64,000 bases of DNA from positions 416,001-480,000 of the forward strand of contig BK006936.2 of NCBI GenBank assembly GCA_000146045.2, read 5' to 3'. The position numbers and the translations under genes were made by a program. Below are positions 8,990 to 13,101 of the stretch, piece after piece. Below the pieces are notes generated by a model. That model did not search any database. It was not told where the DNA came from and saw only the letters and a program-made list of their open reading frames with translations. Each line of letters opens with the position of its first letter. Position 1 is the stretch's first letter. Origin of the DNA: TPA_inf: Saccharomyces (Eukaryota).

Positions 8990-9766
8990 TTATTCTTCGT
9001 CATTAAATTTAGGAGCCAAGAAAAACTGTAGGAACCCACTCTTCAAATCAAATTGGAATAAAGCAGGAGCTTCGCTGGAGAGCCTGATACCAACTCTATC
9101 AGAAAGGGAGGAGCCCTTAATGATGTCCAATAAATATTTAGCTCCGAACGTCAAGTCGACAGGTTGATCCATTTCAAGTTTGATGCTTGTTTCAGGATGT
9201 TCCATATCCACGAATGGTTTTATTATGACTGAACCTGATCCGATATCACCGTCAGCTACAAACTTTATTGTTTCTTTGGTGATCATGATATTAATAGAAT
9301 CACTCAATTGGGACAAGTCACGAACAATTTTAGAGAATTCGGAAGATGGCAATGACAGGGTGGAGTCGTACTGTAATTCTTCAATCTTTAAGAAATCAGC
9401 ATCGATATCCATCAATTTCAGAGAGTATTCGGCTATACGGTCTTTCTTGGTATCCTCAAATAATAAGATGATGGAATCCGGTGTGTTGTCAGCAATTAGT
9501 GTTAATGTATCGGTGTTGTTACCACAACGTAGGATTTTACTTAGTGAGGTTAGATCCATACCTAACGTAACAGGATGGTCACATCTATATTCTTGGAAGG
9601 CTTCGACACCTATTTCCAAGGAGACCAATAGAACTCTTGAGTCATCGACAGCTTGTGCAATGATACCATCTTCTTTACATTGGAAATTGACCAACTGGAC
9701 ACAATCTTTGAAACCATCAATTATTCTCTTGAAAAGGGATGCTTCTTCAAATTTTGCTTCTAACAT
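8990..9766 (-). CDS. POL30: Proliferating cell nuclear antigen (DNA sliding clamp)
   Basis: The 258-aa ORF begins MLEAKFEEASLFKRIIDGFKDCVQLVNFQCKEDGIIAQAVDDSRVLLVSLEIG and is PCNA. The ATG at 9766 was verified. Confidence 0.95.
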   Translation of the reverse strand: MLEAKFEEASLFKRIIDGFKDCVQLVNFQCKEDGIIAQAVDDSRVLLVSLEIGVEAFQEYRCDHPVTLGMDLTSLSKILRCGNNTDTLTLIADNTPDSIILLFEDTKKDRIAEYSLKLMDIDADFLKIEELQYDSTLSLPSSEFSKIVRDLSQLSDSINIMITKETIKFVADGDIGSGSVIIKPFVDMEHPETSIKLEMDQPVDLTFGAKYLLDIIKGSSLSDRVGIRLSSEAPALFQFDLKSGFLQFFLAPKFNDEE

Positions 9767-9955
9767 TTTTTCTCTCTTTTGACTGCGTACTTAGTGCTTG
9801 CTGCTTGTTGCTGTGAGTGAAAAAGGACGGCGAAAGTGAAAGGTGCAAGTGGAAAGAAAGGAAGGCTAAAGCAAAAGTGTTTCTTATATATAATTTTATG
9901 TACCAGAGGAAGCAAAGTACGAAAACTATCAGTTGAAATCCAAAAAAAAAAAGTT

Positions 9956-9969
9956 ACGCGTTTCGCGTT
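9956..9969. promoter_or_regulatory. Two adjacent MCB elements (ACGCGT and ACGCGA on the opposite strand) about 190-200 bp upstream of POL30
   Basis: The sequence reads gttACGCGTttCGCGTtt. A perfect MluI site plus a second ACGCGN core is typical of MBF-regulated G1/S genes. Confidence 0.6.
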
Positions 9970-10189
9970 TTGGTGCGTCGGATGGAGAAGAAAAATGCTA
10001 AATAATTAGATATTGAAGAATCAGCATAAGTTGTGCGAAAAAGGAAGAGAATACATAAAAGAAAAGAAGGATATATAAGTAAAATAATGATAATAGTAAT
10101 AATAATAACACATAATGCAACCTACTCAACTTCTTTCTGAAGTTTCAAAAGTACGTTGTATGGGAGGTAGAGAACATTGAGTTGTTAGA

Positions 10190-10489
10190 TCAAGCACGTG
10201 TAGCATTGTACAATTCCTTTTCAGATTCGTATCTCTTCTTGTCTGCTTGAGCCTTAGATTCATAGGGTTGCTTTTCTTCAGCAGTTAAGGCCTTCCACCT
10301 CTCACCCAATATTCTGCCTACTTGGCCAAAAGTTACGTCAGGATTCTCGGAACGGACAATGTCTCTGTTTTCATTAGCAAAGAACATATAAGCTGACAAG
10401 CCCCTCTTAGGGGCGTTAGGATCCTTCTTTCTCCTGGTGGTCCTCTTCTTTGGTTCCTTTGGTTGCTTTGCTTCTTTAGTTGCGGCCAT
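10190..10489 (-). CDS. NHP6B: HMG-box non-histone chromatin protein (HMGB family, 99 aa)
   Basis: The ORF begins [69 protein letters not shown], which is an HMG box. The ATG at 10489 was verified. Confidence 0.93.
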
Positions 10490-11058
10490 AGCGCTAGTTT
10501 TATATATGTTAATGTTCTAAGTTAATTAGTTAGTACTCTTGTCGTGCGCTATGATAAACAAAGGAAGGGGGTGCACAGAACAGCAGTCCTTTAGAGGATA
10601 CTACAGTAGAAAGCTAGAGTCCTGACTTACAACTTGAGCATGCCGTTATGGGCGGCTATTTCATTTCACCTGAACCGTATTAAAATATCATCTTCCTTGC
10701 TGCTACAACCTTCATTGTAGCCGGTTTATAAGATTACCATCATTGTCTACCCCTCTTTAACTTCTCCCGAAAAGCAGAGTTGCCCTTAGCTGTATCCTGT
10801 TCTAGCTGTGCTAAACTGTACGTTCTTATTAAGCCCATCCTCGTCCGCTGGGCTCACCCAGCGCCTTACATACTTTGCGAAAAAGTCGTTTTTCTGCTTG
10901 GTGTTAGGAGCTGTCTCCCATAGTGTAAACTCCCAGTATTGCCTCAACCTCACTTGCTGTACTTTATAGTTGCCGCGCCACCTAAAAAAAAAAACAAAAA
11001 AGACACCACCTAAAAAAACGGGTGAGGGGAATGCACGTGACCCAGGTGCGGGTACCAT
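10333..11058 (-). CDS. YBR090C: Spliced small ORF, join(11058..10874,10516..10333) on minus strand, 122 aa; exon 2 overlaps the NHP6B CDS in a different reading frame
   Basis: Exon 1 runs from the ATG at 11058 to 10874 (61 codons plus 2 nt), ending AA|GTATGT. The 5' splice site GTATGT is at 10873..10868. The branchpoint TACTAAC is at 10535..10529. The 3' splice site TTAG ends at 10517. The joined reading frame continues for 60 codons to a TAA ending at 10333, for 122 aa in total. All signals were read directly from the sequence. Confidence 0.6.
10517..10873 (-). other. Spliceosomal intron (357 nt) with consensus GTATGT...TACTAAC...TAG, ending 27 nt upstream of the NHP6B ATG
   Basis: The consensus yeast splice signals were read on the minus strand. 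The intron lies in the NHP6B 5' leader region and, at the same time, inside the YBR090C coding region. Confidence 0.6.
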
Positions 11059-11154
11059 ATAAATGTACTTCTAAAATTGTCTACACAGCTTATAATGCTA
11101 TATATGCAGGTTACTATTATATACAAACAGCACAGACAGTCCTCATATTTACAG

Positions 11155-11484
11155 CTATTTTTTGGAATCATCAGCTATTTCTTTGGCCACAAATCGCGAA
11201 TAATGTCGTAGCTGATTCTCTGGCCCGAAACCTCGTGTTTGTACAAATCCTCCAATGAGGCGATTGCTGTAATGCATCTTTGCCACACATCTGTCTATGC
11301 AGCATTGCTCACCTTTCGTTAGATCAGGCTCACCAAAGCCCTCATGCGGAATACATTTCTCAAGACACGTACTGAGAATATTGTTGAAAGTCGAGCACAT
11401 CGCATCGAATTGCACTCCTGCAACGTCTAGCTTCTCTTGCGAGACCTCCTGGTTGCCCCTTAGACTATTTAAAAAGAACGACAT
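11155..11484 (-). CDS. TIM12: Small Tim protein of the mitochondrial inner-membrane carrier import (TIM22) pathway, twin CX3C motifs
   Basis: The 109-aa ORF carries the small-Tim spacing CxxxC...CxxxC (CSTFNNILSTCLEKC...CCIDRC). Its position between NHP6B and PHO3 fits TIM12. Confidence 0.8.
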   Translation of the reverse strand: MSFFLNSLRGNQEVSQEKLDVAGVQFDAMCSTFNNILSTCLEKCIPHEGFGEPDLTKGEQCCIDRCVAKMHYSNRLIGGFVQTRGFGPENQLRHYSRFVAKEIADDSKK

Positions 11485-11697
11485 CCTTTTCTTGGTGCAC
11501 TTTAATATTATACGGGAGCTCCGATATCTATTTCAGCAATATAGACTACAATCAACTTTGCTGTTCTTACTTTTTAGTTAACTTTTTTCTTTTCATTCTG
11601 CCGCTAATCTACAAACTCGTTACCCTACTAGTACATAAAAGAAGATCAGAATCGATGGGTATTTATTTATATTTGCAATATTATTTATTTATACAAT

Positions 11698-13101
11698 TTA
11701 TTGTTTTAATAGGGTATCGTTGTAGTGAGTAGTATTCCAGTCCCAGTAGAAGGTCAATTCGGTGACGTTACTGACACTGCTGACGTTACAGACCTTTAGG
11801 AAGTCAGTACCAGCTACTCTCTTTTCAGCATAGTCGTAGAAATCATTGATTTCACAAGAGAACCCTGGGCCGGTGGAACAGGTTTCAATTGGAACGACAG
11901 CATCGTTAATGACGTATCTGACGTAGGTGTCGTTAGAACATTGGAATTTTTCGGTGTAGACACGAGCACCTTGAGGAACGTACCAGGACTTATGGAAGGT
12001 GTTGCCCATGAATGGAACGTATTCGGCAGTTAAGTTGTTTTTGTCGTCAATTATACCAGCGGTGGTCAAATAGTTTAGGATATCGGTATCGTGGGTAAAA
12101 CTCAACCAGACTTTTAAGTCTTGAGTTTCACTTTGCTTTAACAACTTCAAAGTAGCGTTAAACAAGTTGGCACCGACGGATCTGATCATATCATAACCTG
12201 GTCCATCCTGGTAAAACGATACCAGGTCCTGGCCGTATGAGTAACGTACCAATTCATCTTCGGTGAAGATATCACAAACATCACTGTAGCCTCTAGCGTT
12301 CAATTCGTATGCACACCATGCAAACAAAGTGTTGGCGTCCTTTGAGGTCAAATTCAAACCCTTGTTTTCTTTGTTTAATCTCTTGGCAATGTCATCCAAG
12401 TATGTGGTATCGTATTTGTCCAAAATGTCATCGTTAGCATCTTCATCCCATCCTGGGCACGCATTACCAGCACTCAAAGTGTTTGCGCCGGCGGACATGG
12501 CTTCACTGACAGTCTGCAAGGAGATGTTGAATTGGTCACCTAAACCATCAATGAAATATTGAGCAGTGTCATGAACCCTTTCAGAACTAGCGGCGAAAAT
12601 TGGGAAACTGGTTTGATTTTCGAACATGTAGCCATATTGCGCTAAAAACTCACGAGCATGTCTCTTAGCATCCATCTCACCAGTGTATGGATTCAAAACA
12701 TTGTCTGAGTTGGCAAAAGTGGTTTCCATTTCCAAATCATCGTCATCACGGATGAAAAACTCGTAATCATCGTTCAAGAATGACAATGAGCCGTTGAATT
12801 GACGTGTGTAATTGCTCAACTTATACCATGTTTTCATGATGGTAGCACCTTTACTGTAAGTTGGGTATCTTTCACCATGTCTGGCAAGCATTTGCAATTG
12901 TTTCATTTCACAACCTTCAGGCAAGTCACGAGAAATACCATAGTCGCCAGGGAAAGAGAAGTATGGCCCGGCACCACCCAGGAATGGGAATATGTCTTCC
13001 TGAGTGCCAATTTTGGCAACATCGGCTAACTCTCCGAGGGGAATTGTACCTGCATTAACTAAAGCAGCGGCTAGAACCGAATAAACAACAGACTTAAACA
13101 T
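11698..13101 (-). CDS. PHO3: Secreted acid phosphatase (histidine acid phosphatase family), constitutive/thiamine-repressible isozyme
   Basis: The 467-aa ORF has a signal peptide (MFKSVVYSVLAAALVNA) and the histidine acid phosphatase motif RHGERYP. It is many times N-glycosylated. It forms a near-identical tandem pair with the downstream ORF. Confidence 0.92.
   Translation of the reverse strand: MFKSVVYSVLAAALVNAGTIPLGELADVAKIGTQEDIFPFLGGAGPYFSFPGDYGISRDLPEGCEMKQLQMLARHGERYPTYSKGATIMKTWYKLSNYTRQFNGSLSFLNDDYEFFIRDDDDLEMETTFANSDNVLNPYTGEMDAKRHAREFLAQYGYMFENQTSFPIFAASSERVHDTAQYFIDGLGDQFNISLQTVSEAMSAGANTLSAGNACPGWDEDANDDILDKYDTTYLDDIAKRLNKENKGLNLTSKDANTLFAWCAYELNARGYSDVCDIFTEDELVRYSYGQDLVSFYQDGPGYDMIRSVGANLFNATLKLLKQSETQDLKVWLSFTHDTDILNYLTTAGIIDDKNNLTAEYVPFMGNTFHKSWYVPQGARVYTEKFQCSNDTYVRYVINDAVVPIETCSTGPGFSCEINDFYDYAEKRVAGTDFLKVCNVSSVSNVTELTFYWDWNTTHYNDTLLKQ

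What the first reader, a model, noticed from the sequence alone, without database searches (positions are those of the whole stretch)
10190..11058. Nested spliced gene: the YBR090C exon-2 overlaps the NHP6B coding sequence out of frame, and its intron lies in the NHP6B leader
Exon 1 runs from the ATG at 11058 to 10874. Splicing GTATGT (10873) to the AG at 10517, with a perfect TACTAAC branchpoint at 10535-10529, joins it to exon 2 at 10516-10333. The result is an uninterrupted 122-codon ORF. Exon 2 runs through the first 157 nt of the NHP6B CDS (ATG at 10489) in the +1 frame, on the same strand. The same intron therefore sits 27 nt upstream of the NHP6B ATG, so it can act as a 5'-UTR intron for NHP6B. 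Two proteins may be encoded by overlapping frames of one transcription unit, or NHP6B may be expressed from an internal promoter. This arrangement is uncommon in yeast. The supplied ORF track shows only a 90-aa ORF that reads through into the intron.
Basis: seen in the sequence. Interest (0 to 1): 0.6.

Follow-up and report, generated by a model that had tools for sequence, protein, structure and literature searches.

The report
NHP6B leader intron, spurious YBR090C ORF
The intron is real, ancient and already annotated as an intron in the untranslated leader of the yeast chromatin gene NHP6B, while the 122-codon "YBR090C" reading frame across it is an accident of the reference strain, broken in sister species and in most other S. 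cerevisiae strains sampled.

Summary
On the minus strand, 11058-10874 plus 10516-10333, joined by removing a 357-nt GTATGT...TACTAAC...TAG intron, gives an open 122-codon frame. It overlaps the first 157 nt of NHP6B out of frame. The window is S. cerevisiae chrII (offset 416000). These are the SGD coordinates of YBR090C and of the annotated NHP6B 5'-UTR intron, so nothing is new.

- All three splice signals are kept in S. paradoxus, S. mikatae and S. kudriavzevii. A 5'-UTR intron also sits before the A. gossypii and L. thermotolerans orthologues.
- The 122-aa frame loses its ATG or gains stops and frameshifts in every sister species, and in 6 of 7 other S. cerevisiae strain loci sampled.
- Substitutions in the overlap are almost all synonymous for NHP6B and nonsynonymous for YBR090C.
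- Most of "exon 1" looks like the NHP6B promoter (Reb1-like, Cbf1-like, poly-dT and TATA-like elements). The YBR090C ATG lies about 90 nt upstream of the TATA-like box.

A 2025 preprint reaches the same conclusion and reports RNA-seq evidence that the intron is spliced. Verdict: ordinary, already known, low interest.

The parts
10190..10489 (-). NHP6B (YBR089C-A) coding sequence, 99 aa, an HMG-box chromatin protein. This is the only conserved ORF of the transcription unit.
   Evidence: ORF and translation. HMG-box Pfam domains PF00505 and PF09011, with orthologues across the yeasts; at most two amino-acid changes against Spar, Smik and Skud.
10490..10516 (-). The 27-nt part of the NHP6B 5' leader that lies downstream of the 3' splice site. 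It is annotated as the start of YBR090C exon 2.
   Evidence: it is 25 nt in Spar, Smik and Skud, and this 2-nt indel alone changes the frame relation. The strict TATATAAA at 10506-10499 is specific to S. cerevisiae.
10517..10873 (-). Spliceosomal intron of 357 nt in the NHP6B 5' UTR. It has GTATGT at the 5' splice site, TACTAAC at the branchpoint and TAG at the 3' splice site.
   Evidence: signals invariant and length 352-359 nt in Spar, Smik and Skud. SGD-annotated 5'-UTR intron at chrII 426873..426517; spliced in RNA-seq according to the preprint. NMD substrate (Celik 2017); eight uATGs within the intron; no Rfam family match, so no known snoRNA.
10529..10535 (-). Branchpoint TACTAAC. The branch A is 13 nt upstream of the 3' splice site.
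   Evidence: It is invariant in all four sister-species genomes, at 13-14 nt.
10874..10958 (-). Non-coding first exon of NHP6B. Its 5' end is not mapped here and is inferred to lie downstream of the TATA-like box. This is the best conserved stretch of the locus.
   Evidence: 82.8% invariant columns in four species, against 76-79% for the NHP6B CDS; it holds one short uORF (10921-10904) and no ATG in the YBR090C frame.
10959..10969 (-). Conserved TATA-like box CTATAAAGTAC (TATAAAG, one mismatch from TATAWAWR).
   Evidence: TATAAAG is invariant in all species. It lies about 90 nt downstream of the YBR090C ATG.
10984..11018 (-). Poly(dT) tracts of T7, T6 and T11. This is a typical yeast promoter element. 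It encodes the Phe-rich stretch of YBR090C and is the site of frameshifting length variation.
   Evidence: tracts; indels of 1, 2, 3, 4 and 6 nt between species; the T11 run is T9 or T10 in strains L015, L016 and L021.
11034..11041 (-). Cbf1-like site GTCACGTG.
   Evidence: TCACGTG is invariant in all four sister-species genomes. The motif identity rests on the known consensus RTCACRTG and binding was not tested.
11049..11055 (-). Reb1-like site (GTACCCG here, TTACCCG in the sister species). It begins directly after the YBR090C start codon.
   Evidence: TTACCCG-type sites also lie upstream of the 5' splice site in A. gossypii (three copies) and L. thermotolerans (two copies, one of them GTTACCCT).
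10874..11058 (-). Annotated YBR090C exon 1 (185 nt). It is an accidental ORF lying over the NHP6B promoter and leader.
   Evidence: The ATG is absent in Smik (GTG) and Skud (CTG). There are stops at aligned codons 16, 40 and 63 in Spar.
10333..10516 (-). Annotated YBR090C exon 2 (184 nt). It covers the leader plus the +1 frame of NHP6B codons 1-52.
   Evidence: 9, 15 and 19 substitutions are synonymous in NHP6B and nonsynonymous in this frame; the frame is open by chance in 22-23% of recodings.
10936..10936 (-). The polymorphic base that opens the ORF. The reference has C (TAC, Tyr41). Five other S. cerevisiae strain loci have G (TAG stop).
   Evidence: Outgroups have TAA (Spar) and TAG (Smik, Skud) at the aligned triplet, so the stop is ancestral by parsimony.

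Best explanation
This is a single transcription unit for one protein, NHP6B.

A compact promoter sits directly behind the TIM12 3' end. It carries a Reb1-like site, a Cbf1-like site, poly(dT) tracts and a TATA-like box. Transcription from it is inferred to start between about 10930 and 10885. The first exon is short and non-coding. It is joined to the 27-nt leader by removal of a 357-nt intron with consensus signals. NHP6B is then translated from the ATG at 10489. Unspliced transcripts carry eight intronic uATGs and are reported to be degraded by NMD.

The intron predates the whole-genome duplication. The NHP6B copy kept it and the NHP6A copy has none.

YBR090C is an annotation artefact. In the S288C lineage a stop-removing base change (10936), a particular T-run length and a 2-nt insertion in the leader happen to line up. 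Together they link an ATG in the promoter to the compositionally open +1 frame of the Lys/Arg-rich NHP6B N-terminus.

Shown here: the coordinates, conservation of the signals, decay of the ORF and the substitution pattern. Taken from the literature: splicing, NMD and the annotation. Inferred: the position of the transcription start and binding of the named factors.
For: 1. Coordinates and signals are as described. They equal the SGD NHP6B 5'-UTR intron at 426873..426517.
2. GTATGT, TACTAAC and TAG are invariant in S. paradoxus (L008), S. mikatae (L010) and two S. kudriavzevii genomes (L001, L002), with syntenic neighbours. A 5'-UTR intron is also present before the A. gossypii and L. thermotolerans orthologues. 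It is absent from NHP6A.
3. In the sister species no ATG-initiated ORF in any frame crosses the splice junction. The start codon is lost in Smik and Skud, and stops and non-triplet indels occur in all of them.
4. Within S. cerevisiae only 1 of 7 other strain loci keeps 122 codons. Three carry TAG at codon 41 and three are frameshifted in the T-run. The outgroups show that the stop is ancestral.
5. Between-species substitutions in the overlap are synonymous for NHP6B and nonsynonymous for YBR090C at 9, 15 and 19 sites. At most 1 is synonymous in the YBR090C frame. Synonymous divergence in the overlap (9, 17, 19 of 52 codons) matches the rest of the gene (13, 20, 18 of 47).
6. A search of 5.8 billion proteins finds YBR090C-like sequences only in S. 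cerevisiae, and the automatic gene models disagree with one another.
7. The YBR090C ATG abuts the Reb1-like site, about 90 nt upstream of the conserved TATA-like box and 97 nt downstream of the TIM12 stop. The only other in-frame Met is residue 110.
8. [quoted passage not shown] Celik 2017 treat NHP6B as a 5'-UTR-intron gene and classify its pre-mRNA as NMD-regulated, validated by Northern blot with a CDS probe.
Against: - No transcription-start or ribosome-profiling data could be reached with these tools. The claim that the ATG at 11058 lies outside the main mRNA is therefore inferred from motif positions only.
- Exon 1 being open for 61 codons is uncommon by chance, about 1% per locus.
- From memory, not verified here: SGD records a GFP fusion of YBR090C in cytoplasm and nucleus. 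That would need some translation in this frame. Leaky scanning to the in-frame ATG at 10374 (Met110) would give a near-free GFP with that diffuse pattern, but this is speculation.
- Two of the three T-run frameshift alleles (L015, L016) come from assemblies whose sequencing platform was not checked, so homopolymer length error cannot be excluded. The TAG allele is a base substitution, not a homopolymer-length difference, so it is not open to that kind of error.
Confidence: 0.9

Rival explanations
1. YBR090C is a very young de novo gene, specific to some S. cerevisiae strains. A minor transcript starts upstream of 11058, either from TIM12 read-through or from an upstream start site. It uses the same intron and is translated into a 122-aa protein that overlaps NHP6B in the +1 frame.
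For: The ORF is intact in the reference and in L017. A derived base change at 10936 removed an ancestral stop. A 61-codon open exon 1 is rare by chance, about 1%. A GFP-fusion signal is recalled from the SGD description, from memory and unverified.
Against: There is no conservation, no purifying selection in its frame, and it is broken in 6 of 7 other strain loci. The start codon sits at a Reb1-like site upstream of the TATA-like box. The predicted protein is a translation of poly-T promoter sequence and out-of-frame Lys/Arg codons. There are no homologues.
Confidence: 0.06
2. NHP6B is mainly transcribed from a promoter inside the intron. On this view the upstream exon and the splice belong to a separate, non-coding or YBR090C, transcript.
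For: The middle of the intron holds one sharply conserved 12-nt block, ATAGCCGCCCAT, at 10659-10648. In L. thermotolerans the intron itself contains a TTACCC-type motif (GTTACCCCC), two CACGTG motifs and a TATAAGAG motif.
Against: The conserved Reb1-like, Cbf1-like, poly(dT) and TATA-like set lies upstream of the 5' splice site. The exon-1 segment next to the splice site is the most conserved stretch of the locus. No TATA-like element is conserved inside the Saccharomyces intron. The literature treats NHP6B as having a 5'-UTR intron, reports splicing in RNA-seq, and classifies the NHP6B pre-mRNA as an NMD substrate using a CDS-probe Northern.
Confidence: 0.03

Closest known systems
SGD-annotated 5'-UTR intron of NHP6B (YBR089C-A), one of 24 S. 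cerevisiae genes listed with introns in the 5' UTR (PMC3226532, Table 1)
   Same: It is the same object. The annotated coordinates chrII 426873..426517 equal window 10873..10517, on the same strand, at position -384..-28 relative to the ATG.
   Different: Nothing differs. This work only adds an independent comparative check.
YBR090C as a 'proposed dubious gene' (Core gene set of the species S. cerevisiae, bioRxiv 10.1101/2023.09.07.545205 / PMC12157680)
   Same: The conclusion is the same. Only the splice sites, the branch site and the position upstream of NHP6B are conserved. The coding sequence is not. The intron is spliced in RNA-seq and is shared with A. gossypii ADL310W.
   Different: Details added here: the promoter-like motifs inside 'exon 1', the two-frame classification of substitutions, the ancestral stop at 10936 and T-run frameshifts within S. 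cerevisiae, and chance estimates for the open frames.
Other spurious or dubious yeast ORFs that overlap conserved genes, such as BUD25/YER014C-A overlapping HEM14 (discussed in the same preprint)
   Same: It is an ORF from the original 1996 annotation that overlaps a conserved gene, and the frame is not conserved in other species.
   Different: In BUD25 the proposed intron is not spliced at all. Here the intron is real and belongs to the neighbouring gene.
Genuine same-strand dual-coding or overlapping genes
   Same: Two long ORFs share 157 nt on one strand in different frames.
   Different: Dual-coding regions show depressed synonymous rates and conservation of both frames. Here synonymous divergence is normal and only the NHP6B frame is conserved.

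Membership tests
Canonical S. cerevisiae spliceosomal intron | 5' splice site GTATGT | tested here: met
   GTATGT at 10873-10868. Invariant in Spar, Smik and Skud.
Canonical S. cerevisiae spliceosomal intron | Branchpoint TACTAAC a short distance upstream of a YAG 3' splice site | tested here: met
   TACTAAC at 10535-10529. The branch A is 13 nt from the 3' splice site (TAG at 10519-10517). The distance is 13-14 nt in the sister species.
Canonical S. cerevisiae spliceosomal intron | Actually removed from RNA | not testable with these tools
   No RNA data could be reached. The literature reports splicing in RNA-seq run SRR488142 and classifies the NHP6B pre-mRNA as an NMD substrate.
5'-UTR intron of a protein-coding gene | The intron lies wholly upstream of the start codon of a conserved CDS, on the same strand | tested here: met
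   The 3' splice site is 27 nt (S. cerevisiae) or 25 nt (sister species) upstream of the NHP6B ATG. The same arrangement is seen in A. gossypii and L. thermotolerans.
5'-UTR intron of a protein-coding gene | No conserved coding frame crosses the splice junction | tested here: met
   No ATG-initiated ORF spans the junction in Spar, Smik or Skud.
5'-UTR intron of a protein-coding gene | The transcription start lies upstream of the 5' splice site and belongs to the downstream gene | not testable with these tools
   Inferred from the conserved TATA-like box at 10969-10959 and the upstream Reb1-like, Cbf1-like and poly-dT elements. No TSS data were found.
Functional protein-coding gene (YBR090C), or an overlapping dual-coding locus | The reading frame is intact in closely related species | tested here: not met
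   Spar has stops at aligned codons 16, 40 and 63. Smik starts with GTG and has stops. Skud starts with CTG and has stops or frameshifts.
Functional protein-coding gene (YBR090C), or an overlapping dual-coding locus | The reading frame is intact across conspecific strains | tested here: not met
   Only 1 of 7 other S. cerevisiae strain loci has 122 codons. The rest stop at codons 24, 35, 35, 40, 40 and 40. The sample is small and was chosen by the look-up tool.
Functional protein-coding gene (YBR090C), or an overlapping dual-coding locus | Purifying selection in its own frame, or reduced synonymous rate in the overlapped gene | tested here: not met
   9, 15 and 19 substitutions are synonymous in NHP6B and nonsynonymous in YBR090C. 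The proportion of synonymously changed codons is similar in the overlap and in the rest of the gene.
Functional protein-coding gene (YBR090C), or an overlapping dual-coding locus | Homologues in other organisms | tested here: not met
   All 8 hits are from the same S. cerevisiae locus (those that carry a source name say S. cerevisiae). Several are conflicting gene models.
Functional protein-coding gene (YBR090C), or an overlapping dual-coding locus | Evidence of translation (ribosome footprints or peptides) | not tested
   No such data are accessible here.
NHP6 / HMGB family (for the downstream CDS) | A single HMG box with a basic N-terminal tail, and orthologues in syntenic positions | tested here: met
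   Precomputed Pfam domains PF00505 and PF09011 on the hits, and 958 relatives with E <= 1e-20. TIM12-NHP6-POL30 synteny holds in Saccharomyces, A. gossypii and L. thermotolerans.

The most novel reading that the evidence does not exclude
The S288C-lineage allele of YBR090C is a newly opened, strain-polymorphic de novo ORF. It was created by loss of an ancestral stop (TAG to TAC at 10936) together with a permissive T-run length and a 2-nt leader insertion. It would be translated at a low level from rare upstream-initiated or TIM12 read-through transcripts that borrow the NHP6B leader intron. This would be a snapshot of gene birth on top of a promoter and an overlapping CDS.
Probability: 0.06. 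Interest if true: 0.4.

Novelty: already known. Interest (0 to 1): 0.1.

Why it matters
The value is practical, not conceptual.
- YBR090C still appears in gene lists (for example as a "gene of unknown function" in a 2023 transcriptome paper) and in deletion and GFP collections.
- Its annotated extent covers the inferred NHP6B promoter, the leader intron and the first 52 NHP6B codons. Any ybr090c deletion or tag is therefore in effect an nhp6b allele. Expression values assigned to YBR090C are probably NHP6B leader and pre-mRNA signal.
- The locus is a clean teaching example of a real intron giving false credibility to a spurious ORF.
- It also shows how Lys/Arg-rich coding sequence keeps an alternative frame open by composition alone.

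Tried and rejected
1. Direct transcription-start evidence. Three literature searches (and, which failed on syntax), two look-ups by DOI of older intron and TSS papers (not held) and a supplement search of the preprint (none held) gave no TSS coordinates. The start site remains inferred.
2. A non-coding RNA hosted in the intron, such as a snoRNA. An Rfam scan of 9800-11700 at E <= 1 gave no match. Rejected.
3. Conserved intron secondary structure. RNAalifold on four introns predicts a long-range helix next to the branchpoint, but most pairs are invariant and there are too few sequences. Inconclusive and not pursued.
4. An internal promoter. The strict TATA at 10506-10499 is specific to S. cerevisiae and lies 10 nt from the ATG. 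No TATA-like element is conserved within the intron. Rejected as the main route.
5. The third homology search, which could have fetched S. uvarum, S. eubayanus or S. arboricola loci through TIM12, was not spent. Three sister species, two pre-duplication species and seven strains already give a consistent answer.
6. An N-terminally extended NHP6B. In Spar and Skud IFO1802 the aligned exon-1 frame happens to be in phase with NHP6B. It has stops in Spar and no ATG in Skud, so it was rejected. Automatic gene models that fuse exon 1 to NHP6B (P0002, P0005, P0007, P0008) use ad hoc junctions.

Full report
**What is there**

Reading the minus strand of window 9900-11500 and the mechanical ORF list shows four genes in order: an acid phosphatase (11698-13101), a small Tim10/DDP-type protein (11155-11484), the 99-aa HMG-box protein NHP6B (10190-10489) and PCNA (8990-9766). 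This is S. cerevisiae chromosome II. The published coordinates of the NHP6B 5'-UTR intron are chrII 426873..426517 (PMC3226532 Table 1). They map to window 10873..10517 with an offset of exactly 416000.

**Check of the observation**

- Exon 1 is 11058-10874 (185 nt).
- The intron is 10873-10517 (357 nt). It starts GTATGT, has TACTAAC at 10535-10529 with the branch A 13 nt before the 3' splice site, and ends TAG.
- Exon 2 is 10516-10333 (184 nt).
- The spliced product is 369 nt, which is 122 codons plus a stop.
- The NHP6B ATG lies 27 nt downstream of the 3' splice site, the overlap is 157 nt and the frame is +1.

It reproduces the existing annotation of YBR090C and of the NHP6B leader intron.

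**Comparative test**

A search with the 122-aa product against 5.8 billion proteins returned eight clusters. All come from this same S. cerevisiae locus. Several are mutually inconsistent automatic gene models of 129, 135, 140, 162 and 187 aa.

Through NHP6B orthologues I fetched the syntenic loci of S. kudriavzevii (L001, L002), S. paradoxus (L008) and S. mikatae (L010). I aligned the region from the TIM12 stop to the NHP6B stop.

The intron signals are invariant. All have GTATGT, TACTAAC 13-14 nt from the 3' splice site, and TAG. Intron length is 352-359 nt.

The YBR090C frame is not kept.
- The ATG is GTG in S. mikatae and CTG in S. kudriavzevii.
- S. paradoxus keeps the ATG but has stops at aligned codons 16, 40 and 63.
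- The poly-T tracts carry indels of 1, 2, 3, 4 and 6 nt.
- The leader downstream of the 3' splice site is 25 nt instead of 27, which alone shifts the frame relation.
- In none of the sister species does any ATG-initiated ORF in any frame cross the splice junction.

**Selection in the overlap**

| Comparison with S. cerevisiae | Single-nt differences in the overlap: synonymous in NHP6B, nonsynonymous in YBR090C | Synonymous in the YBR090C frame | Synonymously changed codons, overlap (of 52) | Synonymously changed codons, rest (of 47) |
|---|---|---|---|---|
| S. paradoxus | 9 | 0 | 9 | 13 |
| S. mikatae | 15 | at most 1 | 17 | 20 |
| S. kudriavzevii | 19 | 0 | 19 | 18 |

There is no synonymous constraint in the overlap. 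The +1 frame does stay open in all species. That is a composition effect of the Lys/Arg/Glu-rich N-terminus: 22-23% of random synonymous recodings of NHP6B keep it open for at least 61 codons.

**Within the species**

Seven other S. cerevisiae strain loci were sampled (analysed).
- Only L017 keeps 122 codons.
- L018, L019 and L020 carry G instead of C at window 10936 (TAC to TAG, stop at codon 41).
- L015, L016 and L021 have a T-run that is 1-2 nt shorter and stop after 24 or 35 codons. L015 and L016 also carry the G allele at 10936.

The outgroups have TAA or TAG at the aligned triplet. By parsimony the stop is ancestral and the reference allele is a recent stop loss.

Caveats: the sample is small and was chosen by the look-up tool. 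The sequencing platform of the L015 and L016 assemblies was not checked, so their homopolymer lengths could be in error. The base substitution at 10936 is not open to that kind of error.

**What "exon 1" really is**

The alignment and a motif scan show conserved blocks typical of a yeast promoter:
- a Reb1-like site (TTACCCG in the sister species, GTACCCG at 11055-11049 here), which begins directly after the YBR090C ATG;
- a Cbf1-like GTCACGTG at 11041-11034;
- poly(dT) tracts at 11018-10984;
- GGTGGCGCGGC at 10982-10972;
- a TATA-like CTATAAAGTAC at 10969-10959.

The 95 nt between this box and the 5' splice site are the best conserved part of the locus, at 82.8% invariant columns against 76-79% for the NHP6B CDS.

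The YBR090C ATG therefore lies about 90 nt upstream of the TATA-like box and only 97 nt downstream of the TIM12 stop codon. The only other in-frame Met is residue 110. By established knowledge, yeast initiation occurs roughly 40-120 nt downstream of a TATA element. That places the start at about 10930-10885, downstream of the YBR090C ATG. This step is inferred. I could not reach TSS data.

**Age of the intron**

The pre-duplication orthologues keep a leader intron just before the ATG.
- A. gossypii (L011): GTATGT at 2347, CACTAAC at 2480, CAG, ATG at 2501.
- L. thermotolerans (L012): GTATGT at 2036, TACTAAC at 2470, TAG, ATG at 2501.

TTACCCG-type sites lie upstream of the 5' splice site in both. 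The paralogue NHP6A (L013) and the N. bracarensis gene (L014) have no such intron.

**Literature**

- PMC3226532 lists the NHP6B 5'-UTR intron among 24 such yeast genes.
- Celik et al. 2017 (PMC5393182) state that NHP6B has an intron in its 5' UTR. They classify the intron-containing NHP6B pre-mRNA as an NMD substrate and validated this by Northern blot with a CDS probe. That fits the eight uATGs I count in the intron.
- PMC2839277 records a TAG/CAG polymorphism at its 3' splice site.
[quoted passage not shown] It reports splicing in SRR488142 and conservation in A. gossypii ADL310W.

**Other checks**

There is no Rfam family in 9800-11700. The RNAalifold structure of the intron is inconclusive.

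**Verdict**

The sequence observation is right. The intron is real and belongs to NHP6B. The nested 122-aa gene is an accidental ORF, polymorphic among strains, lying over a promoter, a leader and the +1 frame of a basic N-terminus. All of this is already annotated or published, so interest is low.

The residual novel reading is a nascent de novo ORF translated at low level. It has perhaps a 6% chance and would be of moderate interest.

Noticed in passing
window 10659-10648 (-): A 12-nt block, ATAGCCGCCCAT, is invariant in S. cerevisiae, S. paradoxus and S. mikatae and in one of two S. kudriavzevii genomes (the other has one mismatch). The middle of the intron is otherwise poorly conserved (38.8% invariant). 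From memory it resembles the GCCGCC core of URS1/Ume6 sites. It could be a regulatory DNA site or an RNA element.
   Followed up: partly
window 10921-10904 (-): A five-codon uORF, ATGGGAGACAGCTCCTAA (MGDSS*), lies between the TATA-like box and the 5' splice site. The uATG is kept in all sister species and the uORF is seven codons in S. kudriavzevii. It is part of the mRNA only if transcription starts upstream of 10921.
   Followed up: partly
window 10863-10846 (-): A perfect 7-bp hairpin, CGCTGGG-TGAG-CCCAGCG, starts 5 nt after the GTATGT. It is only partly kept in the other species. RNAalifold also predicts a long-range helix joining intron positions of about 83-98 to the branchpoint region, but most of its pairs never vary.
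   Followed up: partly
window 10506-10499 (-): A strict TATA consensus, TATATAAA, sits in the 27-nt leader only 10 nt upstream of the NHP6B ATG. It arises from a 2-nt insertion specific to S. cerevisiae and is too close to the ATG to serve NHP6B.
   Followed up: yes
L012 about 2036-2490 (L. thermotolerans leader intron): The 5'-UTR intron of about 455 nt itself contains GTTACCCCC, two CACGTG motifs and TATAAGAG. It may hold a second, intronic promoter in that species.
   Followed up: no
proteins P0133 and P0134 (NHP6B variants, Logan/ENA assemblies): These are 163-aa NHP6B variants in which a Trp replaces the stop (...ATRAWSNNS...), consistent with TGA to TGG. They add a 64-aa tail translated from the 3' UTR. 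Each was seen on 9 contigs, which suggests a stop-loss allele circulating in some strains.
   Followed up: no
window 10190-11160 against L013 (NHP6A locus): Synteny shows how the ancestral block PBY1-TIM12-NHP6-POL30-acetyltransferase-ATG11 (seen in A. gossypii and L. thermotolerans) was divided after genome duplication. TIM12-NHP6B-POL30 lies here, and NHP6A-acetyltransferase-ATG11 lies on the other copy. Only the NHP6B copy kept the leader intron.
   Followed up: partly
proteins P0002, P0003, P0005, P0007, P0008: Automatic annotations of S. cerevisiae assemblies give at least five different fused or alternatively spliced gene models for this locus (129-187 aa). This propagates the spurious exon 1 into NHP6B protein entries in public databases.
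   Followed up: partly
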